DNA of 64,000 bases, taken from NCBI GenBank assembly GCA_963724415.1, contig CAVRUS010000011.1:256561-320560 (forward strand), in the 5' to 3' direction. How positions within the stretch are numbered: the first letter of the stretch is position 1; each line of letters starts with the position of its first letter. This stretch comes from an uncultured Actinomycetota bacterium. Lineage in GTDB: Bacteria > Actinomycetota > UBA4738 > HRBIN12. Below the pieces are notes generated by a model that did no database searches, was not told where the DNA came from, and worked only from the letters and a program-made list of their open reading frames with translations. The position numbers and the translations under genes were made by a program. Shown one piece after another: positions 25,355 through 62,132 of this stretch.

Positions 25355-25379
25355 CGTTCCCGTCGCCCCTATGCCTTCC

Positions 25380-26952: not shown

Positions 26953-26961
26953 CGCCGTCTC

Positions 26962-27732: not shown

Positions 27733-27760
27733 CGCGTTCCCCCTCTCGCAGCCGGCGCGA

Positions 27761-28156
27761 TCATTCCTCCGCCGCCTGGGACGTCGGGACCTCGGCCATC
27801 GTGCGCCTGCCGCCGGAACCCTCCGGCAGCCGCGCATAGTACAGGGTGTCCGTCGGGCACCGGTCCACGCACACGGAGCACCGCGTGCAGGCGTTGTCGT
27901 CGACCACGAAGATCGCCGTCGAGTTGTGCACCTCGGCCCCCGACGCCGGTGTCTCGGCGCCCTCGACGATGTCCGGAGCCAGCATGTAGATGCAGTTCCA
28001 CGGGCAGACGTCCTCGCAGGCGCGGCACAGGATGCAGTTGTCGGGGTCCAGCATCAGGTGCTTCGGGGACTTCACGCCCTCCGCGAGCCACGCGGGGTCG
28101 ACGGCCTCCAGCGTGTAGTCCTCGTGGATGTCGACCTCGGTCTTGGTGAACGGCAT
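27761..28156 (-). CDS. 2[4Fe-4S] ferredoxin-domain protein
   Basis: Two CxxCxxCxxxCP clusters ([12 protein letters not shown] and [12 protein letters not shown]). Confidence 0.75.
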
Positions 28157-28168
28157 CTTCCCGGCCTC

Positions 28169-28609
28169 CTACCGGTACCCACCGGTGGGGCGAACGTCTC
28201 CGGACTGTCCGCGGAGCCTGCGGCGCCAGTTCTGCAGGACACCCGCGACGACGAGCACGATGACGACCGGCATGGTCGTGAGGCCCATCGCGATCGCGTC
28301 ACGCAGCATCAGGAGTCCCTCCTGGGAGAGCCACAGGAACGAGCCCTTCGAGAAGAAGGCGCCGCTCGTGTTGAACGGGTCACGCAGGAACGCCTCGAGG
28401 TCGGTCGGTCCCTGCCACCCGAGGATCTGCTCGGCGTAGTACATCCACCACGACGCGACCACCGCGCTCATGATCAGCAGGAAGAACAGGAGCGCCAGCG
28501 AGAACAGGACCGCGCTCGTCCACGACCACTCGAAGTCCCGCAGGAACGACTCCACATGGCGCTTGACGGTTCGGATCGGCGATCTGGTTGCGGTGTCGAC
28601 CTGGCTCAT
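28169..28609 (-). CDS. Small membrane protein (2 TM), first gene of the cytochrome complex operon
   Basis: Internal ATG 28609 by index arithmetic (MSQVDTATRS...); hydrophobic helices. Confidence 0.45.
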   Translation of the reverse strand: MSQVDTATRSPIRTVKRHVESFLRDFEWSWTSAVLFSLALLFFLLIMSAVVASWWMYYAEQILGWQGPTDLEAFLRDPFNTSGAFFSKGSFLWLSQEGLLMLRDAIAMGLTTMPVVIVLVVAGVLQNWRRRLRGQSGDVRPTGGYR

Positions 28610-28692
28610 GCGCTCGCTTGCTCCATGGGCGGGCGAATCATACAACCGGGCCTCGGAGGGCCTCGCGTCCCGGCTCGGCCCCCGCCTCCCAC

Positions 28693-28710
28693 TCGTGAAG
28701 GTTTTCACGA
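28693..28710. promoter_or_regulatory. Rex-type operator palindrome TCGTGAA-GGTT-TTCACGA in the divergent intergenic region between the b6f-like operon and ccdA
   Basis: Perfect inverted repeat matching the Rex operator consensus TTGTGAAnnnnTTCACAA; rex is encoded in this window. Confidence 0.6.
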
Positions 28711-28784
28711 GCAGGTCCACACTATGTCGCGCCCGGGGCTCAGACAACCCGGTGCGCGAGCACGGCGATGGGAAACTGAGCACG

Positions 28785-29567
28785 ATGCTCGGGGCACTGG
28801 TAGAGACGGGACTCTCGTCGTGGTGGGCGCCGGCCCTCGCGTTCGCGGCCGGTGTCGTGTCCTTCGCGAGCCCTTGCGTCTGGCCCCTGGTCCCGGGCTA
28901 CGTCTCGTTCGTGACCGGGAGCCGGGCGGCCGAAGGAGAGGGGCGGCGCCCACTCGTGCCGATCCTGCTGTTCATCCTCGGGTTCACGATCGTCTTCACC
29001 CTGCTGGGGGCGTTCGCCGGCACGTTCGTCCCGCTGTTCCGGGGTCCCTGGTTCCAGCGGGTGGCCGGGCTCTTCGTGCTCCTGCTCGGCCTCTTGATGA
29101 TCGGCTACGCGTTCCGGATGGGGTCGCCCGGCCTGTACGCGGAGCGGCGGCCGCTGCTCGAGCGTGTGCGCATCGGCGGGGCCGGCGCGCTCCCGCTCGG
29201 GGTCGCGTTCGCCGCCGGCTGGACCCCCTGCATCGGGCCGGTGCTCGCGGGGATCCTCGCGATCGCCGCGACCGGAGGTTCGATCAAGGGTGCCGCCCTC
29301 CTCGCCGTGTACTCGCTGGGCCTCGGCGTCCCGTTCCTCCTCGTGGGCCTGGGCGCCGACCGGCTCGTGGCGAGCCTCGGATGGATCCGGCGACACTACC
29401 GGGGGATCGCCGCTGTCTCGGGGGCGTTCCTGGTCGCGGTCGGCGTCCTGCTGATGACGGGACTGTTCACGGCAGTTCTTCGGCCCGCTCGCGCGGTTCG
29501 CGCCCGGGTTGTAGCGCGGGTGCCATGGACGGGTGCGGAGGGGCTCCCTAGCATCGGGGCGCGATGA
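28785..29567 (+). CDS. ccdA: Cytochrome c-type biogenesis protein CcdA (DsbD-like thiol-disulfide transporter)
   Basis: SPCVWPLVPGY motif and multi-TM profile; ATG 28785 by index arithmetic (alternative GTG 28752). Confidence 0.8.
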   Translation: MLGALVETGLSSWWAPALAFAAGVVSFASPCVWPLVPGYVSFVTGSRAAEGEGRRPLVPILLFILGFTIVFTLLGAFAGTFVPLFRGPWFQRVAGLFVLLLGLLMIGYAFRMGSPGLYAERRPLLERVRIGGAGALPLGVAFAAGWTPCIGPVLAGILAIAATGGSIKGAALLAVYSLGLGVPFLLVGLGADRLVASLGWIRRHYRGIAAVSGAFLVAVGVLLMTGLFTAVLRPARAVRARVVARVPWTGAEGLPSIGAR

Positions 29568-31108
29568 CGACCCCGTCCGGCCCCACGGTTCGCCAGTCGG
29601 TCGCCCTCGTCTGGCGCAACCTGCGCTCGATGCGCACGGCGTTGATCCTCCTCCTGATCCTCGCCGCGGCCTCGGTGATCGGGTCGCTCCTTCCCCAGAT
29701 CCCGAACTCGCCCGAGCGGGTGGGACGGTATCTCGACGACCACGGCGCGTGGGGGACCTTCCTCTTCCGAGCCGGCTTCCTCGACGTGTACGGGTCCTGG
29801 TGGTTCGTCTTGATCACGACCCTGCTGTTCGTCTCGCTCGCCGCGTGTCTGTTCCCGAGGACGCGCGCCCTCCTCCGCGCCCTGCGGCAGCGGCCGATCC
29901 ATGCGCGCGAGCTGGATGGGTTCCTCCACCACGCGGAGCTCCGGGTGGGAGCCACCCCCGACGAGGCCGCCGCAGGCGCCGCCCGCTACCTACGGCGGAA
30001 GCGGTTCCGTGTCTCCCGGCAGGGCGGCGCGGTGGCCGCGGAGAAGGGTGTGCTCCGTGAGGTCGGGAGTCTCCTGTTCCACGGCGCGTTCTTCCTCCTG
30101 CTCGTCGGCGTGATCGTGGGGAAGGGGACCGGGTTCACCGGTCGTGCCGTCGTCACGGAGGGCGAGACGTGGGTCGACGCGCGGGTCAACTATGCCGGCG
30201 AGATCCGCACCGGCCGCTACTTCGGGGGCGCGCACACCGGGATGGGGATCGAGCTCCTCGACTTCGACGACAGCTACCGCCGCAACGGGCTGCCGATCGA
30301 CTTCGTCTCCCGCGTCCGCTTCCTCGACCGAGACGGTCGGACAGCGGATCTCGAGGAGATCAGGGTGAACCACCCCGCGAGCCGGGACGGCCTCCGCATC
30401 TTCCAGGAGGGATTCGGCTGGGCGCCGGTGGTCACCGCCTCGCTCGACGGCACGCCGATGTGGTCCACACCGATCGACATGACGCGGGACCAGGCGCCGG
30501 AGGGCGTCCCGGGGACCGCGATGCCATGGCGAGGAGCGATCAAGCTGACCGCCCCCGATCCTGACGTGATGATCACGCTCGAGCTCTGGTCGGACTACCG
30601 GGCGTTCGTCAACCTCCAGCTCACCGGCGAACCCACGCCGATGCTGGTGCAGTTCGACCCGTTCATCCGCTACTCCGTCTACGTGGGCCGGATCCTCGAC
30701 CCGGCGCGGTCCTCGGTCGACCCGACCGGGATGCGGCGTGTGGCGCGCGGAGACCTCCACGCGGCCGGCACCGCGCACGCCGACGTGGCGGGCGTGGGGG
30801 ACCTCACGCTGTCCTTCCCGGAGCTCCGGCAGTACTCGGTCCTGTTGATCAGCCGCGACGTCGGCATCCCGGCGGTGCTCGCCGCCGCTATCCTCGTTCT
30901 CGTGGGACTCATCCCCGCGCTGTACGTCTCCCGGCGGAAGGTCTGGGTCCGAGCGGAGGCCGCCCCCGGCGGCACGCTCGTGAAGATCGGCGGCTTCGCC
31001 CTGCAGCGGAAGGAGTCCTTCGACGAGGAGTTCGATCGGATCGTGCGAGCCGTCGGCGGGCTCGAAGGAGCCGCGCCGCACACGGAGGAACGGGTGGGGA
31101 CGTCGTGA
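29564..31108 (+). CDS. resB: Cytochrome c biogenesis protein ResB (Ccs1)
   Basis: 514 aa with ResB architecture; ATGA overlap with ccdA. Confidence 0.85.
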   Translation: MTTPSGPTVRQSVALVWRNLRSMRTALILLLILAAASVIGSLLPQIPNSPERVGRYLDDHGAWGTFLFRAGFLDVYGSWWFVLITTLLFVSLAACLFPRTRALLRALRQRPIHARELDGFLHHAELRVGATPDEAAAGAARYLRRKRFRVSRQGGAVAAEKGVLREVGSLLFHGAFFLLLVGVIVGKGTGFTGRAVVTEGETWVDARVNYAGEIRTGRYFGGAHTGMGIELLDFDDSYRRNGLPIDFVSRVRFLDRDGRTADLEEIRVNHPASRDGLRIFQEGFGWAPVVTASLDGTPMWSTPIDMTRDQAPEGVPGTAMPWRGAIKLTAPDPDVMITLELWSDYRAFVNLQLTGEPTPMLVQFDPFIRYSVYVGRILDPARSSVDPTGMRRVARGDLHAAGTAHADVAGVGDLTLSFPELRQYSVLLISRDVGIPAVLAAAILVLVGLIPALYVSRRKVWVRAEAAPGGTLVKIGGFALQRKESFDEEFDRIVRAVGGLEGAAPHTEERVGTS

Positions 31109-32055
31109 GCGCTGAGCAGATCTCGAACACCGCGTTCGACGTCACCCTGTGGCTCTACCTGGGGGCGATGGTCCTGTCCTTCGCCTACCTCGCGGCCCGG
31201 CGCGAGGTGCTCTGGCGGCTCGCCAGGGTGGTCGCGATCGCCGGCGTGACGGCGAACCTCGTGTCGATCGTCGCGCGGGGCGTGGCGGCGCAGCGCGTGC
31301 CGTGGGGCAACATGTTCGAGTACTCGACGGTGCTCGCGTTCCTCGTGGTCCTCGGGACCCTCGTGTTCGTCGAGGGCATCGCGAAGATCAAGACCCTCAC
31401 CGGTTTCTCGCTGATGTTCGCGGTCTTCACCCTCGCGATCGCGGCGATCTTCTTCCCGGTGGAGCCGAGCCCGCTGCAGCCGGCGCTGAACTCGTACTGG
31501 ATCAAGATCCACGTCGTGGCCGCGATCACCGGGTCGTCGCTCTTCGCGATCGGCGGGATCGCGACGATCCTGTTCCTGATCAAGGACCGGTCGGAGCGGC
31601 GGGCGCTCGCGGGTCTCCGCGAGCGCCAGCCGGCGCCGATCATGGGCGGCGCGATCGAGGTCGATGCCCCCCACGACCTCCTCCCGGATCCCGAGGGATC
31701 CGGGAGTGCGACCCCCGAGGCCGGGCGCGGCGGCGTCCTGCCGTCCGCCGCCGCCCTGGACCGCGTGGCCTACCGGGTGATCGCGTTCGCGTTCCCGATC
31801 TGGACGTTCGCCGTGATCGCCGGCGCGATCTGGGCGCAGGACGCGTGGGGCCGCTACTGGGGATGGGACCCGAAGGAGACCTGGTCGTTCGTCACGTGGA
31901 CGATCTTCGCCGGCTATCTCCACGCTCGATCGACGGCGGGGTGGAAGGGTCGTCGCGCGGCGGTGATCGCCGTCGTGGGGTTCGTCTCGCTGCTGATCAC
32001 GTACTACGCGGTGAACCTATGGATCGTCGGACTGCATTCCTACAAGCTCGGATGA
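31105..32055 (+). CDS. resC: Cytochrome c biogenesis protein ResC/CcsA
   Basis: Tryptophan-rich WGRYWGWDPKETW motif; GTG start overlapping the resB stop. Confidence 0.85.
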   Translation: MSAEQISNTAFDVTLWLYLGAMVLSFAYLAARREVLWRLARVVAIAGVTANLVSIVARGVAAQRVPWGNMFEYSTVLAFLVVLGTLVFVEGIAKIKTLTGFSLMFAVFTLAIAAIFFPVEPSPLQPALNSYWIKIHVVAAITGSSLFAIGGIATILFLIKDRSERRALAGLRERQPAPIMGGAIEVDAPHDLLPDPEGSGSATPEAGRGGVLPSAAALDRVAYRVIAFAFPIWTFAVIAGAIWAQDAWGRYWGWDPKETWSFVTWTIFAGYLHARSTAGWKGRRAAVIAVVGFVSLLITYYAVNLWIVGLHSYKLG

Positions 32056-32144: not shown

Positions 32145-33249
32145 GTGCGGAAGAGGGTGCTCTGGGCGACGGCCGCGATCGGCCTCCTCCTCCTGTTGAG
32201 CGCCTGCGCCCCCGACGCGACGCAGGACACGCTCCAGCCCAAGGGTCCCTATGCGCAGCTGCTGAAGGATCTGTTCGTCCCCGTCTTCTGGGTCGCCGTG
32301 GTCGTCTTCATCGTGGTCGAGGGCGGCATCGTGTGGATCACGATCCGCTTCCGCCATCGCAAGGGTCGCGAGCGCATGCCGGCGCAGATCCACGGGAACA
32401 CGCGCCTCGAGATCGCGTGGACGATCGCGCCCGCGCTGATCCTGGCCGTCGTGATGGTGCCGACGGTCGCGGTGATCTGGGATCTCGCGCGCAAGCCGCC
32501 CGAGGATGCCCTGAACGTCACCGTCGAAGGCTTCCAGTGGTGGTGGGGCTTCAAGTACACCGACGAGGACATGCGGACGGGCTACGGCGAGGGCGCGCCG
32601 ATCCGCACGGCCGACGTCCTGGTGATCCCCGAGGACCGTGTCGTCTACCTCTCGCTCGAAGCCGCGCGGGGGAGAGATCCAGGGGGACGATCCCGCCGCC
32701 TCGGACTACATGGTGATCCACTCCTTCTGGATCCCGGAGCTGGCGGGCAAGCAGGACGTGGTGCCCGGCAGGACGAACCACATCCTGATGCAAGCGGACG
32801 ACCCCGGCGTGTACACGGGCCAGTGCGCCGAGTTCTGCGGTCTCCAGCACGGTCGGATGCTCGTGCGGGTGGTCGCGCTCTCGGCCGAGGACTGGGACGC
32901 ATGGGTCGAGAACCAGAAGCGCACCGCGGTCATCCCGACCGATCCGCTCGCCCGGCAGGGGATGGACCTGTTCCTCGGACCGCTCTCGGGTGGTCGTGGG
33001 TCCTGCATCAACTGCCACGCCGTGGGCGGAACGGATGCCGTGAGCCAGGCCGGGCCCGAGCTGACCCACTTCGCCGACCCGACCCACGAGTGCTTCGCGG
33101 GGTGCAACTGGGAGGTGACGGATCGCGAGGCGCTGGAGGCCTGGCTCCGCGATCCGAACGCGGTGAAGCTGGGCGCGAAGATGCCGGACTACGACCTGAC
33201 CGAGCGGGAGATCGACGCCCTCGTGGCGTACCTCGAGAGCCTGACGTGA
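32145..33249 (+). CDS. ctaC: caa3-type cytochrome c oxidase subunit II with a C-terminal cytochrome c domain; +1 frameshift in a G5 run near 32668-32672
   Basis: GTG start gives a lipoprotein signal (MRKRVLWATAAIGLLLLLSAC). CuA site (HSFWIPEL, CAEFCGLQHGRM) and CINCH heme motif lie in the second frame (track ORF 32638..33249). Alternative ATG 32052 overlaps the resC stop. Confidence 0.75.
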
Positions 33250-33281
33250 GACGGACCATGCGACGACGGAGCGGATGACCG

Positions 33282-35177
33282 ATGGCGAGCGTGACCATGA
33301 CCCGGAGGCGCGAAGGGATCCTCCGTCGCCCGACGGCGATGACCGGCTTCTCGAGCTGGTTCACGACGATCGATCACAAGAAGATCGGGATCCTCTACGG
33401 GGCGACGGCGTTCGTGTTCTTCATCGTCGGAGGCGTCGAGGCGCTGCTGATCCGCGCCCAGCTCGCGCAGCCCGACAGCACGCTGCTGAACGCCGAGCAG
33501 TACAACCAGATCTTCACGATGCACGGGATCACGATGATCTTCCTCTTCGTGATGCCGATGGCGGCGGCGTTCTTCAACTACTTCATCCCGCTGATGATCG
33601 GTGCGAGGGACGTCGCGTTCCCGCGGTTGAACGCGTACAGCTACTGGGTGTTCCTGCTCGGCGGACTCTTCCTCTATTCGAGCTTCTTCCTCGGAGGGGC
33701 GCCGAACGGCGGATGGTTCGGCTACGCGCCGAACTCGACCACCGATCCGTCGATCGGGATGAGCTTCTATGCCATCGGGCTGATCATCACCGGGATCGCC
33801 TCGACGGCGGGAGCCGTGAACCTCGCCGTCACGGTCATCAATCTGCGGGCGCCGGGGATGTCCCTGTTCCGCGTGCCCGTGTTCGTCTGGATGGGGCTCG
33901 TGGTGCAGCTGCTGCTCGCCTTCTCCCTGCCGATCATCACGGTCGCGCTGTTCCAGCTGCTGTTCGACCGCGAGTTCCTGACGCACTTCTTCGATCCGAC
34001 GGCCGGGGGGGATCCGATCCTGTGGCAGCACCTCTTCTGGCTCTTCGGACATCCCGAGGTCTACGTGCTGATCCTCCCCGCCTTCGGCATCTTCTCTGAG
34101 GTCCTGCCGGTCTTCTCGCGGAAGCCCCTGTTCGGGTACCAGTTCGTCGTGTTCTCCGGGATCGCGATCGGATTCATCGGGTTCGGCGTGTGGGCCCACC
34201 ACATGTTCGCGGCCGGACTGGGGCCGGTGGCCAACACCGCCTTCGGCGTCACGACGGCGATCATCGCCGTTCCCACCGGCGTCAAGATCTTCAACTGGAT
34301 GGGCACCATCTACGGTGGCGACATCCGCTTCACGTCGGCGATGCTCTTCACGCTGGGCGGGATCATGATGTTCGTGATCGGCGGGCTCTCGGGCGTGATG
34401 CACTCGATCGTCCCGTCCGACTATCAGCAGACCGACACGTACTTCATCGTGGCCCACTTCCACTACGTGATCTTCGGAGGTGGCGTGTTCGCCTTCTTCA
34501 GCGCGATGTTCTACTGGTGGCCCAAGGTGTTCGGGCGCCTGCTGAACGAGCGGCTCGGGGTGATCGAGTTCGTCCTGATGACGATCGGGTTCAATCTGAC
34601 GTTCGGGCCCATGCACATCCTCGGCCTGCAGGGGATGATCCGGAGGACCTACACGTACCCGGAGTCGCTCGGTCTCACGTTCTGGAACGAAGCCGCCACG
34701 GTCGGTTCGTTCCTGATCGCCCTCTCGGTCCTGCTGTTCATCGTCAACGTCGTGATCAGCCACGCGAAGGCGAAGCCCGCCGACGTCGCCGACCCATGGG
34801 ACGCCCGCACCCTCGAATGGATGACGACCTCGCCGCCGCCCGTCCACAACTTCGACGAGGTGCCGACGGTCCACGCCCTGGATGAGTTCTGGCACCGCAA
34901 GTACGTGGAGGACGAGCGGACCGGCCGGCTCGTCCCGGCCCAGGCCGGAGCCGCGAACGGGGGCGCCGACGGGCGCGAGTCGGACGGATACGGCGCCACA
35001 CATGGCATCCACCTGCCCAGCCCGTCCTACTGGCCGCTCGTCGCCGCGCTCGGGATGCCGCTGATCGGCTTCGGGGTGCTCTTCTCCTCGTGGCTCGTCG
35101 GGGCCGGGGTCGTGATCGCGCTGACCGGCTTCTACGGATGGGCGATGGAGCCGTCCGTGTCGCCGGGGGAGGGGTAG
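33282..35177 (+). CDS. ctaD: Cytochrome c oxidase subunit I with a C-terminal two-helix extension
   Basis: 631 aa; canonical HCO subunit I motifs; likely true start near 33339 (MTGFSSWFTTIDHKKIG). Confidence 0.9.
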   Translation: MASVTMTRRREGILRRPTAMTGFSSWFTTIDHKKIGILYGATAFVFFIVGGVEALLIRAQLAQPDSTLLNAEQYNQIFTMHGITMIFLFVMPMAAAFFNYFIPLMIGARDVAFPRLNAYSYWVFLLGGLFLYSSFFLGGAPNGGWFGYAPNSTTDPSIGMSFYAIGLIITGIASTAGAVNLAVTVINLRAPGMSLFRVPVFVWMGLVVQLLLAFSLPIITVALFQLLFDREFLTHFFDPTAGGDPILWQHLFWLFGHPEVYVLILPAFGIFSEVLPVFSRKPLFGYQFVVFSGIAIGFIGFGVWAHHMFAAGLGPVANTAFGVTTAIIAVPTGVKIFNWMGTIYGGDIRFTSAMLFTLGGIMMFVIGGLSGVMHSIVPSDYQQTDTYFIVAHFHYVIFGGGVFAFFSAMFYWWPKVFGRLLNERLGVIEFVLMTIGFNLTFGPMHILGLQGMIRRTYTYPESLGLTFWNEAATVGSFLIALSVLLFIVNVVISHAKAKPADVADPWDARTLEWMTTSPPPVHNFDEVPTVHALDEFWHRKYVEDERTGRLVPAQAGAANGGADGRESDGYGATHGIHLPSPSYWPLVAALGMPLIGFGVLFSSWLVGAGVVIALTGFYGWAMEPSVSPGEG

Positions 35178-35179
35178 GG

Positions 35180-35825
35180 ATGGCCGACGTCGCGATCACG
35201 CACGGCGAGCCCCACGGCGCCGATCACCCGGAGACCACCACCGGGCTGCCCCACACCAAGCTCGCGATGTGGATCTTCCTGGCCTCCGAGTGCATGTTGT
35301 TCGGCGCGCTGATCACCACGTACGTGCTGTACCGGGGAGCGGAGCAACGGCGCCTCCCCTTCCCGCCGAGATCTTCGACATCCCGTACACGTCGGTGTCC
35401 TCGTTCGTGCTGCTCACGAGCTCGCTCACGATGGTGCTGGCGCTGTCCGCCGCGCAGGACCGCGACACCGGCAGGATGCGTCTGTGGCTGCTCACCACGG
35501 CGTTGCTCGGTCTGACGTTCGTCGGAGGCCAGGTCTACGAGTTCACCGCCTTCTACGAAGAGGGACTCAAGCTCTCGACACGAACCTCTTCGGGACGACC
35601 TTCTACGTCCTGACCGGGTTCCACGGCGTCCACGTCACGGTCGGCATCCTGATGCTGCTCTCGCTCGTCGGCCTGTCCTCCGCGGAGCGCCTCCCGGAGG
35701 ACCCGTCCTTCCCGGTCGAGATGGTGGGGCTCTACTGGCACTTCGTCGACATCGTGTGGATCGTGATCTTCACCGTCGTGTACCTGATCCCGACGCCCAG
35801 CCCGGGAGGTCCCGGTGGCCCTTGA
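35180..35825 (+). CDS. ctaE: Cytochrome c oxidase subunit III (short form); two -1 frameshifts near 35355-35365 and 35565-35575
   Basis: Subunit III segments lie in three successive frames (track ORFs 35090.., 35269.., 35484..): WIFLASECMLFGALITTY / EIFDIPYTSVSSFVLLTSSLTM / NLFGTTFYVLTGFHGVHV. Confidence 0.7.
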
Positions 35826-36144
35826 GCAGCACGAGGTCGAGCTGCCGGCCGAGCACGCCGGGTCGCACGCCGGCCACCCGGGCGCGAAGGAGTACGTGCG
35901 GATCGCGGTGATCCTGTTCGTCCTCACGGGACTCGAGATCGGCGCGTCGTACGCGGGCGTGAGCATCGGCATCCTGATCCCGACCCTGTGGGTCCTCGCG
36001 ATCGTGAAGTTCGCGCTCGTCGTGTTGTGGTTCATGCACCTGAGGTTCGACGACCGCCGCTACGCGCGCTTCTTCGTGATGGGCCTGTCCGGAGCGTCGG
36101 TGCTCTATCTCATCGTGCTGATCTCGTTGCGGGCCTGGGCCTGA
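35815..36144 (+). CDS. ctaF: Cytochrome c oxidase subunit IV (CtaF-like small subunit)
   Basis: 109 aa with 2-3 TM helices, directly after ctaE with 4-nt overlap. Confidence 0.55.
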   Translation: MALEQHEVELPAEHAGSHAGHPGAKEYVRIAVILFVLTGLEIGASYAGVSIGILIPTLWVLAIVKFALVVLWFMHLRFDDRRYARFFVMGLSGASVLYLIVLISLRAWA

Positions 36145-36974
36145 TGGCTCTGCCCCCGTTCCACGTGCACCTGGACGTGCTCGCGACGCTCGGCGGGCTG
36201 GCCGTCGCGTACCTGCTCGCCGCGGGGAGGCACGAGCAGACGACGGGGGAGCGGCTCCCGCGTGGTCGCCGGTACCGTTTCCTCGGCGGCGTCGCCGCGC
36301 TGCTCCTGGGCGCGACGTGGCCGATCCACGACCTCGCCGAGGGCTACCTCTACAGCATGCACATGGTGCAGCACATGCTGTTCACGTTCGTCGCGGCACC
36401 GCTGCTGCTCACGGGGACGCCGGCGTGGATGTGGCGCGCGCTGCTCCGGCCGGCGGCCGTGCGAGCGGTCTGGGGGCTGCTCACCCGTCCGCTCGTGGCA
36501 CTGATCGTCGCCAACGGCGTCCTGTTCTTCATCCACTGGCCCGCCGTCGTGTCGCTGTCGGTCCGGTCCGAGCTCGCGCACTTCTCGCTCCACACGTTGC
36601 TGCTGGGGTCCGCGATCGTGATGTGGTGGCCGGTGCTGTCGCCGCTGCCGGAGCTGCCCGCCCTGTCGCGGCCGGGTCAGCTCCTGTACCTCTTCTTCCA
36701 GTCGCTCGCACCGACGATCCCGGCCTCGTTCCTGACGTTCGGGACGGAGCCGCTCTACCCGATCTACGCCACGTTCCCCCGGATCTGGGGCATGGACGCG
36801 CTCACCGATCAGCTCATCGCCGGCCTCGTGATGAAGATCGTCGGCGGCGCGATCCTCTGGGTCGTGATCGCCGCGATCTTCTTCCGATGGGGCCACGAGG
36901 AGACGACCGAGGGCTGGGACGCCCTGAAGTTCCGCAACGTCGAACGGGAGATCCGCGCAGGGATGGGCCGATGA
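36144..36974 (+). CDS. ctaG: caa3-type cytochrome oxidase assembly factor CtaG (COG3336)
   Basis: Start by index arithmetic; multi-TM with conserved His/Met residues (MHMVQHMLF). Confidence 0.6.
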   Translation: MALPPFHVHLDVLATLGGLAVAYLLAAGRHEQTTGERLPRGRRYRFLGGVAALLLGATWPIHDLAEGYLYSMHMVQHMLFTFVAAPLLLTGTPAWMWRALLRPAAVRAVWGLLTRPLVALIVANGVLFFIHWPAVVSLSVRSELAHFSLHTLLLGSAIVMWWPVLSPLPELPALSRPGQLLYLFFQSLAPTIPASFLTFGTEPLYPIYATFPRIWGMDALTDQLIAGLVMKIVGGAILWVVIAAIFFRWGHEETTEGWDALKFRNVEREIRAGMGR

Positions 36975-37939
36975 GCGATCGCGGCGAGCGACAGAGCCTG
37001 CTGCTGCCGATCCTGATCCCCGTCGGCGGGCTCGCGGTGATCGTCCTCGTCCTCTTCCTGTTCTCGCGCGTGCTGCTGTCCGTGAAGCCGAACGCCGCGA
37101 CGGCCGTCGCGCTCGTCGTGGCCGCCGGGATCATGACGGTCGCGGCGTTCGTCGCGTCGCGCCGCAGCGTGACCGGGGCGACGCTCGGGTCCTTCGTCGG
37201 GGCGGCCGCCGGGATCGCGATGGCGGCCGGCGGGATCGCGATCGTGGTGATCGGGCCGCCGGAGGAGGAGATCCCGCCGATCCACGCCGTGCTCGCAGCG
37301 CCCGAAGGGGCGATCACCGAGGGCTTCTCGACGGACGCGCTGGCGTTCCTGCCCGATCGGCCCGTCGAGCTCGAGTTCACGAACGAGGACGCGACCGGAC
37401 ACAACATCTGGATCCTCGACGGACCCGACGACACCGCCCCGCCCTTGTTCCAGGGCGACGACGTCCCCGGGCCGGGGGAGACCATCTACCGGATACCCCC
37501 GCTCGAACCCGGCGAATACTTCTTCTTCTGCGAGCTGCACCCCGGCACGGCGATGGAGGGGACGGTGACGGTGTCCGAGGGCGCGGGAGCAGTCGAGGTC
37601 GTGGCGCAGAACACCGCGTTCGACACCGACGAGATCCACCTGCCGGCGGACACGCCGTCGAAGCTCACCCTCGATAACGAGGACGCCTTCGCCCACAACC
37701 TGTCGATCTACGAGGACGACACGGCCTCCGGCGTGCCCTTGTTCACGCTCGAGCCGTTCTCCGGGCCGGCGACGGAGACGAGGGACGTGCGGGCCCTCGC
37801 GGAGGGGGAGTACTACTTCCGCTGCGACATCCATCCGACGATGGAGGGCACGGTCGTGGTGGCGCCGGCACCGCCTCCCGGCGAGGGCGGGCCCGGGAAC
37901 GAGCCGGGGGAGCCGAGCGGGGACGACGAGGGCGGCTAG
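36971..37939 (+). CDS. Membrane-anchored protein with two cupredoxin (blue-copper) domains
   Basis: Two type-1 copper C-x2-H-x2-4-M sites (FFCELHPGTAMEG; YFRCDIHPTMEG) with upstream His (GHNIW; AHNLSIY); two N-terminal TM helices; ATGA overlap with ctaG. Confidence 0.65.
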   Translation: MSDRGERQSLLLPILIPVGGLAVIVLVLFLFSRVLLSVKPNAATAVALVVAAGIMTVAAFVASRRSVTGATLGSFVGAAAGIAMAAGGIAIVVIGPPEEEIPPIHAVLAAPEGAITEGFSTDALAFLPDRPVELEFTNEDATGHNIWILDGPDDTAPPLFQGDDVPGPGETIYRIPPLEPGEYFFFCELHPGTAMEGTVTVSEGAGAVEVVAQNTAFDTDEIHLPADTPSKLTLDNEDAFAHNLSIYEDDTASGVPLFTLEPFSGPATETRDVRALAEGEYYFRCDIHPTMEGTVVVAPAPPPGEGGPGNEPGEPSGDDEGG

Positions 37940-37952: not shown

Positions 37953-38483
37953 GTGGTCCGCGTGCCCCTTCCCGCTCGTCGGCTCTCTTTCGTCGCGTCG
38001 CTCCTGTTGATCGTCACCGCGATCGCGTGCGCGTCGGGCGAGGACTCGATCTTCGGCGTCGCCGAGATGGATCGGCCGCTGCCTCGGCTCGTCGGCGAGA
38101 CGCTCGACGGCAGCCAGCTCGACGCCGCGGCGCATGCGGAGGGCGGCGTCCTGGTCATCAACGTCTGGGCGTCGGACTGCGCGCCGTGCCGTACCGAGCA
38201 GCCCGAGCTGGTGGATCTCGCGAACCGGTACGCGGCCGACGGCGTGCGCTTCCTCGGGATCAACTACGACGACGACCTGGATGCTGCGAACGCCTGGGTC
38301 GGGGAGTTCGACGTGCCGTACCCGAGCCTGTTCGACCCCTCCGGCCGGACCGCGGCCCAGCTCGGGTACCCGGCCCTCCCCGACACCTACGTCGTGGACG
38401 AGGGGGGAACGATCCGGTGGGTCGTGTTCGGCGCGACCGACGGACCGCAGCTCGCCGGCCTCATCGACGACGTGCTCGCCTGA
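37953..38483 (+). CDS. Thiol-disulfide oxidoreductase ResA/TlpA family lipoprotein
   Basis: WASDCAPC thioredoxin motif; lipobox IACASG. Confidence 0.8.
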   Translation: MVRVPLPARRLSFVASLLLIVTAIACASGEDSIFGVAEMDRPLPRLVGETLDGSQLDAAAHAEGGVLVINVWASDCAPCRTEQPELVDLANRYAADGVRFLGINYDDDLDAANAWVGEFDVPYPSLFDPSGRTAAQLGYPALPDTYVVDEGGTIRWVVFGATDGPQLAGLIDDVLA

Positions 38484-38489: not shown

Positions 38490-39908
38490 TCAGGCGTGGA
38501 GCAGCGCGTCCGCGCCGACCGCTCCGAAGAGCCCCGCGAGGTAGAGGATCGAGAACGAGAAGAGGCGCCTCGTCCGTGCGTCGTCCGCGGTCCGCCACAC
38601 CTGCAGCGAGCGGTACACGAACGAGCCGCCGAGCAGCACCGCAGCGCCCGTGTACACGGGGCCCATGTGTCCGATCGGCACGAGCAGCAGCGTCGTCGCG
38701 AACAACACGAGCGAATAGAGGAGGATCTGCCGCCGTGTCTCGGCTTCGCCGCGGACCACGGGGAGCATCGGGACACCCGCCGCCGCGTAGTCGCCGGAGA
38801 AGCGCATCGCAAGGGCCCAGAAGTGCGGCGGCGTCCAGACGAACACGATCGCGAACAGCACGACGGCGGGCCACGCGAGCGTGCCGGTGACGGCGGCCCA
38901 TCCGACGAGTGCCGGCACCGCGCCGGCCGCGCCGCCGATCACGATGTTCTGCGAGGTCGTGCGCTTGAGCCACATCGTGTAGACGAAGACGTAGAACGCG
39001 ATCGCGGACAGGGCCAGCACGGCGGCCAGGACGTTGACGGTCACCGCGAGGAAGTAGAAGGCGATCGCGCCCAGAACGAAGCCGAACCGGAGGGCGTGTT
39101 CCGGCGCGATCGCGTGCGACGGCAGCGGCCGCTGGCGTGTCCGACGCATGATCGCGTCGATGTCCCGGTCGAGGTACATGTTGATCGAGTTGGCGGATCC
39201 GGCGGCGATCGCACCGCCCGTCAAGGTCGCGAGGATCAGCCACGGGGAGGGCAGCCCTCGCTCGGCGAGCAGCATCGCCGGGACGGTGGTGATCAGCAGC
39301 AGCAGGACGATCCGCGGCTTCGTGAGGCGGTAGTAGGCCGTGACGGTGTCGCGGAGCGACGGGCGGTCCTGGGCGATCTCGTCGACCTCTGCATCGGGGT
39401 CGGCACCTCCCTCTGTGCCGGGTGCCGTCCTCCCGAGCCTCGCCATCGTGGCGAGCGCGACCACCGTGGCCCAGATCAACACGGACAGCGCCACGTGTGC
39501 CACGACGGCCCAGGGCTGGAGCCGGGTCCACACGTTGGCCGCGCCCACGAGCACCTGCGCGACGAACAGGGCGAGGGCGGTCGTCGAGAGTCGCACCAGG
39601 ACCTCGCGCCGGCCGTCGCCGGTCCGGGCGCGGATCGCCGTCCAGAGGACGAGGAGCATCGCGGCGGCGGCGAGCGCGCGGTGCAGGAACATCGCCGTCG
39701 CGGCGCCGCCGAGCGTCGGCACGAGCCGCCCGTCCATCAACGGCCAGTCCGTGAACACCAGCTGGGCGTCGCTCGCGCGGACGTAGGTGCCGACGAGGAG
39801 CAGGGCTCCCACGACGGCCGCCACCAGGAGGGTGAGCCGCGCGAACGGGTCGCGGGCACCGCGGGGTTCATCCATGGCGCCCGCTTCCATGGCGCCCGCT
39901 TCGCGCAC
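38490..39908 (-). CDS. ctaB: Heme A synthase C-terminal half fused in frame to protoheme IX farnesyltransferase (CtaA-CtaB fusion, downstream part)
   Basis: N-terminal about 160 aa are CtaA helices 5-8 (FLHRALAAAAMLL...), then a UbiA-family CtaB (YYRLTKPRIV...NMYLDRDIDAIM). Confidence 0.75.
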   Translation of the reverse strand: MREAGAMEAGAMDEPRGARDPFARLTLLVAAVVGALLLVGTYVRASDAQLVFTDWPLMDGRLVPTLGGAATAMFLHRALAAAAMLLVLWTAIRARTGDGRREVLVRLSTTALALFVAQVLVGAANVWTRLQPWAVVAHVALSVLIWATVVALATMARLGRTAPGTEGGADPDAEVDEIAQDRPSLRDTVTAYYRLTKPRIVLLLLITTVPAMLLAERGLPSPWLILATLTGGAIAAGSANSINMYLDRDIDAIMRRTRQRPLPSHAIAPEHALRFGFVLGAIAFYFLAVTVNVLAAVLALSAIAFYVFVYTMWLKRTTSQNIVIGGAAGAVPALVGWAAVTGTLAWPAVVLFAIVFVWTPPHFWALAMRFSGDYAAAGVPMLPVVRGEAETRRQILLYSLVLFATTLLLVPIGHMGPVYTGAAVLLGGSFVYRSLQVWRTADDARTRRLFSFSILYLAGLFGAVGADALLHA

Positions 39909-40350
39909 CTGCGCCGGGTCTGACGGCGCTCGCCACGTAGGTCACGTCGGCGATCAGCAGGAGAGCCGTGACGAAGTGCGCCGTGACCCACCAGGGATCC
40001 AGCTCGGTGGCCACCACCACGGCCCCGATCCCCGCCTGGGCCATCACGAGCGGGAACGCCAGGACCGCCGGCCACCGGAGTCGTGGTTCCCCGGACGCCA
40101 CCCGGTACGCGACGACGCCGGTGAGCGCCGCCAGCACGGCGACCAGGAACGCCATCGTGCGGTGCGAGAACTCGATCAGGGAATGGATCGTCCCCGACGG
40201 GAACAGGTGCCCTGGCTCACAGGCCGGCCACGTCGAGCATCCGAGTCCGGACCCCGTCCCGCGGACGAGCCCGCCGATCGCGAACAGCACGATCGTGGCG
40301 ATCGCCGTGACGAGCGCCAGGGACCGGAATCGGGAGCGGGTGAAGAGCAT
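39868..40350 (-). CDS. ctaA: Heme A synthase N-terminal half (CtaA helices 1-4 with a Cys-pair loop), separated from the rest by a frameshift
   Basis: Start by index arithmetic (MLFTRSRFRSL...); GCSTWPAC loop cysteines and HSLIEFSHR; ends in a stop inside a 15-bp tandem duplication, while the continuation is in another frame. Confidence 0.65.
   Translation of the reverse strand: MLFTRSRFRSLALVTAIATIVLFAIGGLVRGTGSGLGCSTWPACEPGHLFPSGTIHSLIEFSHRTMAFLVAVLAALTGVVAYRVASGEPRLRWPAVLAFPLVMAQAGIGAVVVATELDPWWVTAHFVTALLLIADVTYVASAVRPGAGARSGRHGSGRHG
39872..39901. repeat. Perfect 15-bp tandem duplication (CCATGGCGCCCGCTT x2) at the ctaA frameshift junction
   Basis: Read directly from the sequence; encodes EAGAM-EAGAM in one frame and SGRHG-SGRHG in the other. 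Confidence 0.6.
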
Positions 40351-41701: not shown

Positions 41702-41730
41702 GCGTGTCATGACCCCGTGCGATAGGCTGC

Positions 41731-41748
41731 TTGTGAAAGGTTTCACGA
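41731..41748. promoter_or_regulatory. Rex-type operator TTGTGAA-AGGT-TTCACGA upstream of the geranylgeranyl reductase-nuo operon
   Basis: Near-perfect match to the Rex consensus TTGTGAAnnnnTTCACAA; shares a 16-mer with the site at 28693. Confidence 0.6.
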
Positions 41749-41780
41749 GCGCCCGACGGGGCTCCTGAGGGGAGGCGCGC

Positions 41781-62131: not shown

Positions 62132-62132
62132 C

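What the first reader, a model, noticed from the sequence alone, without database searches (positions are those of the whole stretch)
32145..37939. Thermus/Bacillus-style caa3 oxidase module with an embedded di-cupredoxin
CoxB carries a lipoprotein signal and a C-terminal CINCH cytochrome c domain. CoxA has a two-helix C-terminal extension resembling the first helices of long subunit III. A short subunit III, subunit IV and CtaG follow. Next comes a membrane-anchored protein with two type-1 copper sites (FFCELHPGTAMEG and YFRCDIHPTMEG). A blue-copper protein co-operonic with caa3 and the b6f-like complex is a plausible electron shuttle (auracyanin/halocyanin-like) or copper-delivery factor. 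It is not part of standard actinobacterial cta operons.
Basis: partly seen in the sequence, partly recalled or inferred. Interest (0 to 1): 0.55.

Follow-up and report, generated by a model that had tools for sequence, protein, structure and literature searches.

The report
Membrane-anchored double blue-copper oxidase partner
A cytochrome caa3 oxidase operon of an uncultured soil actinobacterium carries a conserved membrane-anchored protein with two blue-copper centres, most likely an electron-passing partner of the oxidase; this kind of partner is known elsewhere but, as far as I could find, not described in this phylum or in this form.

Summary
A 93%-identical short-read contig has them intact, so long-read assembly error is likely.

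The di-cupredoxin is real. It has three N-terminal transmembrane helices and two high-confidence beta-sandwich domains. Each domain has a full type-1 ligand set (His-Asn…Cys-x2-His-xn-Met), at least 95% conserved in 49 intact orthologues. In 79 species-level Actinomycetota loci the order ctaG-cup is kept in 74 of 75 testable cases, with coxA (62/62) and coxB (59/59) upstream. The cup ATG overlaps the ctaG stop codon.

The closest structures are auracyanin, amicyanin and AcoP. Related T1 domains are fused to the C-terminus of CoxB, where caa3 carries cytochrome c, in other actinobacterial oxidase operons; the one with two fused domains that I read also encodes its own copper chaperones.

Most likely it is an outward-facing, oxidase-bound electron-transfer partner (confidence about 0.6). 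A copper-delivery role is less likely (about 0.12). This is a new variant of a known kind, of moderate interest.

The parts
32145..33249 (+). coxB: caa3-type subunit II with lipoprotein signal, two TM helices, CuA domain and C-terminal cytochrome c domain (CINCH). Interrupted by a +1 frameshift near 32666-32672.
   Evidence: Pfam PF02790, PF00116, PF00034. One search shows one extra nt compared with the intact L084 orthologue. One search shows the insertion is shared with L083.
33282..35177 (+). coxA: subunit I (631 aa) with a two-helix C-terminal extension (about residues 575-623, nt 35004-35150).
   Evidence: PF00115 E 6e-155; PF12270 E 1.4e-6. (CtaF E 0.026; COX3 N-terminus E 1-6; the match to Bacillus QoxB runs to residue 602).
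35180..35825 (+). coxC: short subunit III, split over three reading frames in this window.
   Evidence: One search shows the indels compared with L084 (COX3, 210 aa, intact). L083 has an intact COX3 of 214 aa.
35815..36144 (+). coxD: prokaryotic subunit IV (109 aa).
   Evidence: PF03626, E 9e-11.
36144..36974 (+). ctaG: Caa3_CtaG assembly factor (276 aa). Its ATG overlaps the coxD stop codon by 1 nt.
   Evidence: PF09678, E 4e-49. (L084 orthologue, 276 aa).
36971..37939 (+). cup: membrane-anchored tandem type-1 cupredoxin (322 aa). Its ATG overlaps the ctaG stop codon (ATGA).
37001..37252 (+). Three transmembrane helices of Cup (residues 11-36, 40-62, 69-94), with conserved R7, P17, F31, R33, L35, L36, A43, T44 and R64.
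   Evidence: AF2 helices. (conservation 0.64; TM1 0.75). (charge distribution fits N-terminus inside, C-terminus outside).
37280..37579 (+). Cupredoxin domain 1 (residues 104-203). T1 ligands: H144 (37400), C187 (37529), H190 (37538), M195 (37553).
   Evidence: plastocyanin E 6e-6; pLDDT about 90.
37589..37864 (+). Cupredoxin domain 2 (residues 207-298). T1 ligands: H242 (37694), C285 (37823), H288 (37832), M291 (37841).
   Evidence: amicyanin E 3e-4; pLDDT 95.8; auracyanin TM 0.83-0.86.
37865..37936 (+). Pro/Gly/acidic C-terminal tail of Cup. It is predicted disordered, poorly conserved, and not rich in His or Met.
   Evidence: pLDDT below 50 for residues 302-322. (conservation 0.34).
37953..38483 (+). 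ResA/DsbE/TlpA-like thiol-disulfide oxidoreductase (CAPC motif).
   Evidence: PF00578, PF08534. (DsbE 3e-22, ResA 5e-15, TlpA 4e-10; all below the curated cut-offs).
38490..40350 (-). ctaA-ctaB fusion (haem A synthase plus haem O synthase), convergent with the cox operon. Frame broken near 39858-39906.
   Evidence: PF01040, PF02628. (L084, 608 aa, intact)..
28782..32055 (+). ccdA-resB-ccsA: cytochrome c maturation system II, directly upstream of coxB.
   Evidence: PF02683, PF05140, PF01578. Conserved in the related loci.
23910..28783 (-). Divergent Rieske/cytochrome b6 operon and candidate electron donor. Gene order: unknown membrane protein, 2x[4Fe-4S] ferredoxin, cytochrome b6, subunit IV, Rieske protein, membrane-anchored monohaem cytochrome c, unknown membrane protein.
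   Evidence: The proximal genes (membrane protein, ferredoxin, cytochrome b6) recur wherever the contig reaches; Rieske and cytochrome c were seen in three loci whose 10-kb flanks reach them.

Best explanation
Cup is an electron-transfer partner of the caa3 oxidase.

Shown:
- It is an integral membrane protein with three helices and two canonical type-1 copper domains.
- It is translationally coupled to ctaG, within the gene run coxB-coxA-coxC-coxD-ctaG-cup-redoxin, which is read here as one operon.
- It is conserved across uncultured Actinomycetota.

Inferred:
- The N-terminus faces the cytoplasm and both copper domains sit on the outer face of the membrane, the same side as CuA and the cytochrome c domain of CoxB.
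- The conserved helices hold the protein against the oxidase, or against an oxidase/Rieske-b6 supercomplex.
- The T1 centres take single electrons, most plausibly from the membrane-anchored cytochrome c of the divergently encoded Rieske/b6 complex or from another outer-face donor.
- The electrons then pass to the cytochrome c/CuA entry of CoxB.
- The copper centres act either in series with the haem c or as a second, parallel entry, as proposed for AcoP.
For: 1. Both domains have a canonical T1 signature. H144-N145…C187-x2-H190-x4-M195 and H242-N243…C285-x2-H288-x2-M291 are each at least 95% conserved in 49 intact two-domain orthologues that go down to about 37% identity. The only two cysteines in the protein are these ligands.
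2. The fold is confident. Both domains reach pLDDT about 90 in the full model, and domain 2 alone reaches 95.8. Domain 2 is closest to electron carriers: auracyanin B (1QHQ, TM 0.86, rmsd 1.9 Å), Roseiflexus auracyanin (0.83), amicyanin (0.71) and AcoP (0.76). By sequence the nearest solved proteins are plastocyanin and amicyanin.
3. The gene neighbourhood is conserved. ctaG lies directly upstream in 74 of 75 loci, coxA is upstream in 62 of 62, and coxB is upstream in 59 of 59. The ResA-like gene was scored as following within 900 nt in 68 of 76 loci; two more loci have it abutting or overlapping cup. The start and stop codons overlap as ATGA.
4. There is a gene-fusion link. Homologous T1 domains (30-42% identity; E 1e-28 over the tandem pair) are fused to the C-terminus of CoxB proteins with intact CuA motifs, at the position where caa3 carries cytochrome c. 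These fusions sit in genuine coxB-coxA-coxC operons. One of them (L080) also encodes Sco, CopC/CopD, YcnI and CtaG, so there the T1 domains are not the copper chaperones.
5. The charge pattern fits outward-facing domains. Mean K+R is 2.5 at the N-terminus and 2.2 in loop 2, while the stretch after TM3 has 3.0 D+E.
6. The anchor is conserved as strongly as the catalytic domains (0.64 against 0.57 and 0.64; TM1 0.75), which suggests specific contacts within the membrane.
7. There are precedents. AcoP copurifies with its oxidase and is encoded in the same operon as that oxidase (PMC5982212). A halocyanin/CbaD fusion is known in haloarchaea (PMC8305020).
Against: - There are no biochemical data for any member of the family.
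- A route made of haem proteins alone can already be drawn. The Rieske/b6 operon has its own cytochrome c, and CoxB keeps its cytochrome c domain in 60 of 63 loci; the three exceptions are one CoxB hit cut by a contig end and two long-read MFD contigs. Cup is therefore not obviously needed.
- The gene lies between assembly genes (ctaG and the ResA-like gene). The cluster gathers nearly all known caa3 biogenesis functions except a CuA chaperone. This is the context expected for an assembly factor.
- The relative orientation of the domains and any docking to the oxidase are not predicted with confidence (pTM 0.43). No coordinates were available to measure distances.
- The anchor has no detectable relative among solved oxidase or supercomplex subunits.
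Confidence: 0.6

Rival explanations
1. Copper-delivery or assembly factor. Cup binds copper on the outer face and hands it to the CuA site of CoxB (or to CuB through CtaG). In this lineage it would take the place of Sco, PCuAC or CtaK.
For: - The gene sits between ctaG and a ResA/TlpA-like reductase.
- The region clusters CcdA, ResB, CcsA, CtaG, CtaA and CtaB, but no Sco, PCuAC or CtaK was found in the cluster or in the other window ORFs I scanned.
- The review PMC9145763 notes that unrelated proteins can fill the CuA-chaperone role.
- Two copper sites would match the two copper ions of CuA.
Against: - The ligand set is the buried Cys/His/His/Met set of electron carriers, with the hallmark His-Asn. 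It is not the H(M)x10Mx21HxM motif of PCuAC or the CxxxC+His motif of Sco.
- There is no His/Met-rich tail.
- 18 of 74 intact orthologues (the five long-read contigs with fewer than two motifs set aside) have three domains, so the count does not track the two CuA coppers.
- Related domains are permanently fused to CoxB in an operon that also carries Sco, CopCD and YcnI.
- Whether Sco or PCuAC lies elsewhere in the genome is unknown.
Confidence: 0.12
2. Entry port for a different respiratory donor. Cup does not link the Rieske/b6 complex to the oxidase. Instead it collects electrons from an unidentified outer-face substrate oxidoreductase or an extracellular donor (a role like that of amicyanin, rusticyanin or sulfocyanin) and feeds them to caa3.
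For: - The haem c route from the Rieske/b6 complex already looks complete.
- Two to three tandem domains plus a flexible tail could reach away from the membrane.
- Precedents are amicyanin, and sulfocyanin as the proposed first acceptor from Fe(II) (PMC10654088).
Against: - No candidate dehydrogenase or outer-surface cytochrome is conserved next to the cluster in the 79 loci.
- The tight coupling to the oxidase genes says nothing about the donor.
- This differs from the best explanation only in the upstream partner.
Confidence: 0.15
3. Copper homeostasis or protective subunit. Cup buffers or sequesters copper at the outer face (as CopI does), or merely stabilises the oxidase, with no role in electron flow.
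For: - AcoP was first noted for stabilising oxidase activity (PMC5982212).
- Cupredoxin-fold proteins with T1-like ligands are also reported in copper resistance (for example CopI); this point is from my own knowledge and was not checked here.
Against: - No copper efflux or resistance genes (CopA, CopZ, CsoR) are present in the conserved neighbourhood.
- Complete conservation of two full T1 sites is unnecessary for a purely structural role.
Confidence: 0.06
4. A two-domain multicopper oxidase or copper nitrite reductase, as suggested by the top hits when the whole model was compared with solved structures.
For: Foldseek on the full model ranks NirK and two-domain laccases first (E about 1e-11).
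Against: - Those matches have TM 0.23-0.27, rmsd about 12-20 Å and 10-13% identity. They only reflect two cupredoxin domains in tandem.
- The protein has six histidines in all. Four are T1 ligands and the other two (H105, H223) are not conserved.
- A trinuclear cluster needs eight histidines and a T2 nitrite site needs three. There is no HCH motif (the window has FFC and FRC).
Confidence: 0.02

Closest known systems
AcoP ('acidophile cytochrome c oxidase partner') of Acidithiobacillus ferrooxidans
   Same: A membrane-anchored cupredoxin encoded in the same operon as an aa3-type oxidase. It copurifies with the oxidase and is proposed as a second electron entry that also stabilises the enzyme (PMC5982212). 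The fold is similar (7Z3F, TM 0.76 to domain 2).
   Different: AcoP has one TM segment and one domain with a green 'type 1.5' site. Its gene lies before coxB in an iron-oxidation operon of an acidophilic proteobacterium. Sequence similarity to Cup is below detection (it is not among the 33 PDB sequence hits). Cup has three conserved helices and two or three classical T1 domains, and follows ctaG.
Auracyanins A/B (Chloroflexus, Roseiflexus)
   Same: They are the best structural match to domain 2 (1QHQ TM 0.86, rmsd 1.9 Å; 6KOL 0.83; 2AAN 0.80). They are T1 electron carriers and are described as the periplasmic electron acceptor of alternative complex III (PMC10873879 abstract). Membrane tethering and menaquinone-based chains are points from my own knowledge.
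   Different: Auracyanins have a single domain and only 19-24% identity to Cup. Their partner is alternative complex III, not a Rieske/b6 complex. As far as I know their genes do not lie in a cox operon.
Halocyanin (Natronomonas) and the halocyanin/CbaD fusion of Halobacterium
   Same: A blue-copper one-electron carrier to a terminal oxidase in an organism with a b6-like complex. A gene fusion to an oxidase subunit supports that link (PMC8305020). The CoxB-T1 fusions found here give the same kind of support.
   Different: Halocyanin is archaeal, lipid-anchored and single-domain, and it replaces cytochrome c altogether. Here the oxidase keeps its cytochrome c domain. No sequence test against halocyanin was possible with these tools.
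Amicyanin and plastocyanin
   Same: They are the nearest solved proteins by sequence: plastocyanin for domain 1 (E 6e-6) and amicyanin for domain 2 (E 3e-4). The ligand-loop lengths also match (C-x2-H-x4-M and C-x2-H-x2-M).
   Different: Cup scores far below the curated family cut-offs (TIGR02656: 33 against 88 bits; TIGR02657: 25 against 110 bits). Amicyanin and plastocyanin are soluble single-domain proteins with other partners.
Cytochrome c domain of caa3 CoxB, and dihaem QcrC of the actinobacterial bcc-aa3 supercomplex
   Same: They are functional analogues: a tethered one-electron relay that removes the need for a soluble carrier between complex III and complex IV. [quoted passage not shown]
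   Different: They use haem rather than copper and have an unrelated fold. In this lineage the haem relays are also present.
PCuAC, Sco and CtaK (CuA assembly factors)
   Same: They act on the outer face, bind copper, are often linked to cox genes, and PCuAC has a cupredoxin-like fold (PMC9145763).
   Different: Their defining motifs are absent from Cup. There were no Pfam hits to PCuAC or SCO1-SenC.

Membership tests
Type-1 (blue) copper cupredoxins (Pfam PF00127 Copper-bind / PF13473 Cupredoxin_1) | Greek-key beta-sandwich cupredoxin fold. | tested here: met
   PF13473 scores 76 bits (cut-off 27) and PF00127 scores 47 bits (cut-off 21), each with two stretches. In the AF2 models the domains are all-beta, with pLDDT about 90 in the full model and 95.8 for domain 2 alone. 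TM scores to auracyanin and amicyanin are 0.7-0.86.
Type-1 (blue) copper cupredoxins | Four ligands: an upstream His (followed by Asn), then Cys, His and Met in a C-terminal loop. | tested here: met
   H144/N145/C187/H190/M195 and H242/N243/C285/H288/M291 are all at least 95% conserved in 49 orthologues. The motif was counted in 79 loci: 56 have two copies and 18 have three. The five with fewer are all on long-read MFD contigs, four of them visibly frame-broken.
Type-1 (blue) copper cupredoxins | Binds one copper per domain, with an intense band near 600 nm, a small A-parallel EPR signal, and reversible one-electron redox behaviour. | not testable with these tools
   Needs expressed protein.
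Plastocyanin (TIGR02656) / amicyanin (TIGR02657) equivalogs | Score above the curated NCBIfam cut-off. | tested here: not met
   33.2 against 87.85 bits, and 24.6 against 110.2 bits. Cup is not a member of either family; they are only distant relatives.
Oxidase-associated membrane cupredoxins (the AcoP, sulfocyanin SoxE and halocyanin type; a functional class, not one sequence family) | Membrane anchor plus outward-facing T1 domain. | tested here: met
   Three predicted TM helices. The charge distribution fits N-terminus inside and C-terminus outside.
Oxidase-associated membrane cupredoxins | Gene linked to terminal oxidase genes. | tested here: met
   74 of 75 loci have ctaG-cup adjacent, with coxA in 62 of 62 and coxB in 59 of 59. 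The ATGA overlap links cup to ctaG.
Oxidase-associated membrane cupredoxins | Physical association with the oxidase and electron transfer to it. | not testable with these tools
   Support is indirect only: CoxB-T1 fusions and the conserved anchor.
Oxidase-associated membrane cupredoxins | Sequence homology to AcoP or SoxE. | tested here: not met
   AcoP is absent from the PDB sequence hits at E <= 0.01. SoxE (PF06525) scores 16.9 bits, below its cut-off of 21.
caa3-type A-family haem-copper oxidase module (Bacillus/Thermus style) | Subunit II with a CuA site and a fused cytochrome c domain; subunit I; short subunit III; subunit IV; Caa3_CtaG. | tested here: met
   Caveat: coxB and coxC are frame-broken in this assembly, but intact in L084.
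Two-domain multicopper oxidase / NirK | T2/T3 histidine ligands (HxH motifs, HCH) in addition to the T1 site. | tested here: not met
   There are only six His in the protein, four of them T1 ligands, and no HCH motif. The Foldseek matches have TM of only about 0.26.
PCuAC / Sco copper chaperones | H(M)x10Mx21HxM motif (PCuAC), or a thioredoxin fold with CxxxC plus His (Sco). | tested here: not met
   No Pfam match to either family. The motifs are absent on reading the sequence. The definitions are taken from PMC9145763.

The most novel reading that the evidence does not exclude
Cup is a fixed, stoichiometric subunit of a menaquinol-oxidising Rieske/b6-caa3 supercomplex. Its conserved three-helix anchor docks in the membrane, and its two (or three) blue-copper centres form a copper 'wire' between the complex III cytochrome c and CoxB. 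Together with the CoxB-T1 fusions, this would define an unrecognised class of cupredoxin-fed A-family oxidases in Actinomycetota, a phylum thought to rely on haem-only (QcrC) relays. A still more radical reading is not excluded but is less likely (under 0.1): the tandem T1-like sites load the two copper ions of CuA, replacing Sco and PCuAC.
Probability: 0.2. Interest if true: 0.7.

Novelty: new variant of a known kind. Interest (0 to 1): 0.45.

Why it matters
Model actinobacteria pass electrons from complex III to complex IV through a dihaem cytochrome inside an obligate supercomplex. Blue-copper carriers are not part of that picture.

This work shows that a broad set of uncultured, mainly soil, Actinomycetota always encode a tandem blue-copper membrane protein inside the caa3 operon; the scan found relatives in 290 species-level genomes and the 79 loci read were checked for context. 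Other Actinomycetota fuse related copper domains directly onto subunit II.

If these proteins carry electrons, respiration in abundant soil bacteria depends on copper supply in a way current models do not include. There would also be a new, compact system for studying how tethered copper and haem relays are combined. The protein has no curated family and no characterised member, so one expressed domain would settle its basic chemistry.

Tried and rejected
- I looked up the window's own Cup protein (P0001) by exact sequence for its contig. Nothing was on record.
- I made a profile of the three-helix anchor alone and searched it against PDB sequences. The only hit was a chance-level one (E 0.49).
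- I searched the same profile against the 5.8-billion-protein collection. It returned only 36 short or partial sequences (nearly all matching most of the anchor; three weak matches of unclear membership) and no alternative architecture such as anchor plus cytochrome c.
- Foldseek on the whole model put two-domain laccases and NirK first. I rejected these as domain-count artefacts: TM about 0.26 and T2/T3 ligands absent.
- NCBIfam has no family that claims the protein.
- Promoter and terminator scans of 31.9-38.7 kb found nothing above the shuffled expectation.
- I looked for Sco, PCuAC or CtaK among other window ORFs and found none. This says nothing about the rest of the genome.
- Six full-text literature searches found no description of this family.
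- I considered that the coxB frameshift could be programmed, because it is shared with L083. I judged systematic long-read error more likely, because both contigs carry other, unshared breaks in essential genes.
- I could not name the class or order of the organism. All related records are titled only Actinomycetota or Actinomycetes bacterium.

Full report
**1. What is in the window**

The region has about 70% G+C, so the mechanical ORF list is full of spurious frames. Reading frames were chosen by third-position GC and by Pfam hits. The + strand then reads as follows.

- ccdA (28782-29567), resB (29564-31108) and ccsA (31105-32055).
- coxB (32145-33249), coxA (33282-35177), coxC (35180-35825) and coxD (35815-36144).
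- ctaG (36144-36974), a 322-aa cupredoxin protein called Cup here (36971-37939), and a ResA/DsbE/TlpA-like redoxin (37953-38483).

A ctaA-ctaB fusion gene converges from the minus strand (38490-about 40350).

A divergent operon lies upstream on the minus strand. In order it encodes:

- an unknown membrane protein
- a 2x[4Fe-4S] ferredoxin
- cytochrome b6
- subunit IV
- a Rieske protein
- a membrane-anchored monohaem cytochrome c
- a second unknown membrane protein

**2. Checking the observation**

- CoxB has the lipobox LLLLSAC, COX2_TM and COX2 domains, the CuA motif CAEFCGLQHGRM, and a cytochrome c domain with CINCH.
- CoxA is 631 aa.
- Subunit IV (PF03626) and Caa3_CtaG (PF09678) follow.
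- Cup contains the two quoted motifs.

- A 93%-identical contig from a JGI metagenome (L084) has an intact CoxB (397 aa), COX3 (210 aa) and CtaA-CtaB (608 aa).
- Against it, the window has one extra base at about 32666 in coxB.
- It has net +2 nt at 35339-35365 and +2 nt at 35571 in coxC.
- It has 37 extra nt at 39858-39906 in ctaA-ctaB.
- A second close relative (L083, from a Microflora Danica assembly) is broken in coxA, ctaG and the redoxin, but has coxC intact.
- L083 shares the coxB insertion.
- Microflora Danica genomes come from Nanopore sequencing (PMC12313526).

Assembly error, partly systematic, is the simplest reading. It is not proven. The cup gene itself is intact.

The C-terminal extension of CoxA is real.

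- It passes the Pfam threshold for actinobacterial subunit IV/CtaF (28.8 against 26.9 bits) and weakly matches mycobacterial CtaF in the PDB (E 0.026).
- It matches the N-terminus of long subunit III even more weakly (E 1-6). Its HLPSPSYWPL resembles the COX3 motif NPSPWPL.
- The best full-length match, Bacillus QoxB, aligns out to residue 602.

**3. The cupredoxin protein**

AlphaFold2 was run with a 20-sequence alignment.

- It gives three helices (residues 11-36, 40-62, 69-94), two all-beta domains with pLDDT about 90, and a disordered Pro/Gly/acidic tail.
- Domain 2 modelled alone reaches pLDDT 95.8.
- Pfam finds two cupredoxin stretches.
- No NCBIfam model claims the protein. Plastocyanin and amicyanin score far below their cut-offs.

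The protein has only two cysteines and six histidines.

- Both cysteines and four of the histidines form two complete type-1 sets: H144-N145…C187-x2-H190-x4-M195 and H242-N243…C285-x2-H288-x2-M291.
- In 49 intact two-domain orthologues taken from species-level genomes, all eight ligands and both Asn residues are at least 95% conserved.
- Across 79 loci, 56 proteins have two such motifs and 18 have three.
- The five with fewer are all on long-read MFD contigs, four of them visibly frame-broken.

The nearest known proteins are electron carriers.

- By sequence the nearest solved proteins are plastocyanin (domain 1, E 6e-6) and amicyanin (domain 2, E 3e-4).
- By structure domain 2 is closest to auracyanin B (TM 0.86, rmsd 1.9 Å), Roseiflexus auracyanin (0.83), auracyanin A (0.80), AcoP (0.76) and amicyanin (about 0.71).
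- The whole model matched two-domain laccases and NirK first, but with TM about 0.26. The histidines needed for T2/T3 copper are absent. An enzymatic multicopper role is rejected.

**4. Topology and the anchor**

Across the orthologues the N-terminus and the second loop are rich in K/R (means 2.5 and 2.2). The segment after helix 3 is acidic (3.0 D+E, 0.4 K+R). This fits an N-in, C-out topology, with both copper domains on the outer face alongside CuA and the CoxB cytochrome c domain.

The anchor is not a generic hydrophobic stretch.

- Its mean column conservation (0.64; helix 1 reaches 0.75) equals or exceeds that of the copper domains (0.57 and 0.64).
- R7, P17, F31, R33, L35, L36, A43, T44 and R64 are nearly invariant.
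- This suggests specific contacts within the membrane.
- The anchor has no detectable relative among solved structures.
- It was not found joined to any other kind of domain.

**5. Distribution and gene neighbourhood**

The family is common in metagenomes.

- There were 473 hits among the candidates scored in the 90%-clustered collection.
- There were 163 representatives at E <= 1e-30 in the 50%-clustered library.
- Relatives occur in 290 of the species-level genomes scanned.
- The 79 best loci are all metagenome-assembled genomes, almost all titled Actinomycetota or Actinomycetes bacterium. No cultured organism appears among them.

I compared the window's proteins with these loci by tblastn.

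- ctaG lies immediately upstream of cup in 74 of 75 testable loci. The exception is a frame-broken contig.
- coxA is upstream in 62 of 62, and coxB in 59 of 59.
- The ResA-like gene was scored as downstream within 900 nt in 68 of 76 loci; two more have it abutting or overlapping cup.
- ctaB is downstream in 68 of 70.
- CoxB keeps its CXXCH motif in 60 of 63 loci. The three exceptions are a CoxB hit cut by a contig end and two long-read MFD contigs.
- The ccdA-resB-ccsA genes and the proximal genes of the divergent operon (membrane protein, ferredoxin, cytochrome b6) recur wherever the contig reaches that far; its Rieske and cytochrome c genes were seen in three loci whose flanks reach them.
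- In the window the cup ATG overlaps the ctaG stop codon (ATGA).

**6. Fusion evidence**

The representative search turned up P0187, a subunit II with an intact CuA motif and two C-terminal T1 domains.

- The pair aligns collinearly with the two Cup domains (34% identity over 209 residues, E 1e-28).
- A follow-up search found several more two-domain fusions and many subunit II proteins of 320-390 aa. All six that I read carry a single fused T1 domain (motifs HNFSIY…YYFQCDVHGxAMSG).
- Both Cup domains are 30-42% identical to these fused domains. Domain 2 scores slightly higher.
- The fusions lie in genuine coxB-coxA-coxC operons.
- One of these operons (L080) also encodes CopC/CopD, YcnI, CtaG, a Sco-thioredoxin fusion and a further lipoprotein cupredoxin. 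The other (L081) encodes CtaG, CopC and a three-repeat cupredoxin-like protein.

In these oxidases a T1 domain of this family sits where caa3 oxidases carry cytochrome c. In L080 it does so alongside a separate set of copper chaperones.

**7. Most likely mechanism**

Shown:

- Cup is an operon-coupled integral membrane protein with two canonical, conserved T1 sites.
- Its soluble domains belong structurally with electron-carrier cupredoxins.
- Related domains are fused to the electron-entry subunit of related oxidases.

Inferred:

- The copper domains face outward.
- The conserved helices bind the oxidase or an oxidase/Rieske-b6 assembly.
- The T1 centres relay single electrons to the cytochrome c/CuA entry of CoxB.
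- The electrons most plausibly come from the membrane-anchored cytochrome c of the neighbouring Rieske/b6 complex.
- The copper centres act either in series with the haem c or as a parallel second entry.

The second-entry role is the one proposed for AcoP, which copurifies with its oxidase and shares its operon (PMC5982212). A halocyanin/oxidase-subunit fusion has been used to make the same argument in haloarchaea (PMC8305020). I put this explanation at about 0.6.

**8. Rival explanations**

The main rival is a copper-delivery role (about 0.12).

- For it: cup lies between ctaG and a thiol reductase.
- For it: the cluster gathers almost the complete known Bacillus caa3 biogenesis set (CcdA, ResA-like, ResB, ResC, CtaG, CtaA, CtaB; list from PMC9145763), yet has no Sco, PCuAC or CtaK.
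- Against it: the ligand chemistry is that of buried electron-transfer sites.
- Against it: there is no His/Met-rich tail.
- Against it: the domain number varies between two and three.
- Against it: the fusions coexist with dedicated chaperones.

A variant of the main model has Cup collecting electrons from some other outer-face donor (about 0.15). This cannot be separated from the main model with the present data. Copper buffering or pure stabilisation (about 0.06) and an enzymatic multicopper role (about 0.02) are unlikely.

**9. Comparison with what is known, and novelty**

In function Cup resembles AcoP, auracyanin, halocyanin and sulfocyanin. All are membrane-tethered blue-copper proteins that serve terminal oxidases.

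It is not a sequence member of any of those families.

- AcoP is not detected by sequence.
- SoxE scores below its cut-off.
- Plastocyanin and amicyanin score far below their cut-offs.

It differs from them in four ways.

- It has a conserved three-helix anchor.
- It has two or three tandem T1 domains.
- It has a fixed position after ctaG.
- It occurs in Actinomycetota, next to an oxidase that still has its own cytochrome c.

In the library I could search, nothing describes it. Reviews of actinobacterial respiration describe haem-only CIII-CIV supercomplexes (abstract of PMC13456599).

I class it as a new variant of a known kind. Interest is moderate (0.45). The chemistry is expected. The breadth of the family in uncultured soil actinobacteria and the CoxB fusions would be new to specialists, and a single expression experiment could test the idea.

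Noticed in passing
window 32666; 35339-35365; 35571; 39858-39906: There are frame-breaking indels in coxB, coxC (two) and ctaA-ctaB relative to the intact orthologue L084. The coxB insertion is shared with a second MFD contig (L083), which carries other, unshared breaks. This is probably long-read assembly error, possibly systematic at the GCGCGG(G)GG context. A real or programmed +1 frameshift in coxB is not excluded.
   Followed up: partly
window 27761-28156 (-), with 26962-about 27750 (-): A 131-aa 2x[4Fe-4S] ferredoxin gene sits directly upstream of cytochrome b6 inside the Rieske/b6 operon. The pairing is conserved (74-95% identity) in the related loci wherever the contig reaches that far. 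An iron-sulfur ferredoxin is not a usual member of bc/b6f-type operons.
   Followed up: partly
window 28169-28783 (-) and 23910-about 24620 (-): Two membrane proteins with no Pfam match bracket the Rieske/b6 operon. The first is conserved in the related loci (36-86% identity).
   Followed up: no
window 28782-32055 and 37953-38483: The cytochrome c maturation genes ccdA-resB-ccsA lie immediately upstream of coxB, and the matching ResA/DsbE-like redoxin (CAPC motif) lies after cup. With ctaG and ctaA-ctaB, almost the whole known Bacillus caa3 biogenesis set is in one place, but no Sco, PCuAC or CtaK.
   Followed up: partly
L080 10001-11365; L081 10001-11074; proteins P0187, P0273, P0285, P0289, P0297, P0344, P0371, P0376: In other Actinomycetota MAGs (one labelled Mycobacterium sp.), cytochrome oxidase subunit II is fused at its C-terminus to one or two type-1 cupredoxin domains instead of a cytochrome c. 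The L080 operon also holds CopC/CopD, YcnI (DUF1775), a Sco-thioredoxin fusion and a further cupredoxin lipoprotein; L081 holds CtaG, CopC and a three-repeat cupredoxin-like protein.
   Followed up: partly
loci L016, L019, L020, L025, L027, L028, L036-L039, L041-L043, L049, L050, L054, L056, L060: Eighteen Cup orthologues have a third type-1 domain (about 420-450 aa), separated by Gly/Pro/Ser-rich linkers.
   Followed up: partly
window 38490-about 40350 (-); L084 6737-8563: Haem A synthase (CtaA) and haem O synthase (CtaB) are fused into one gene of 608 aa in the intact orthologue.
   Followed up: no
window 43365-about 58000 and 58723-64000: There appear to be two separate NADH dehydrogenase (nuo-like) gene sets in the same window. 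Several neighbouring ORFs overlap in different frames, which may again reflect indel errors.
   Followed up: no
window 40410-43028: A polyprenyl synthase gene, a short ORF at the position where the orthologous loci L083/L084 annotate a PNPOx-like gene (no Pfam hit for the frame I translated in the window), and an ORF at the position of their FAD-dependent (geranylgeranyl-reductase-like) gene (not scanned in the window) lie between the haem A genes and the nuo cluster. They may act in menaquinone side-chain synthesis.
   Followed up: no
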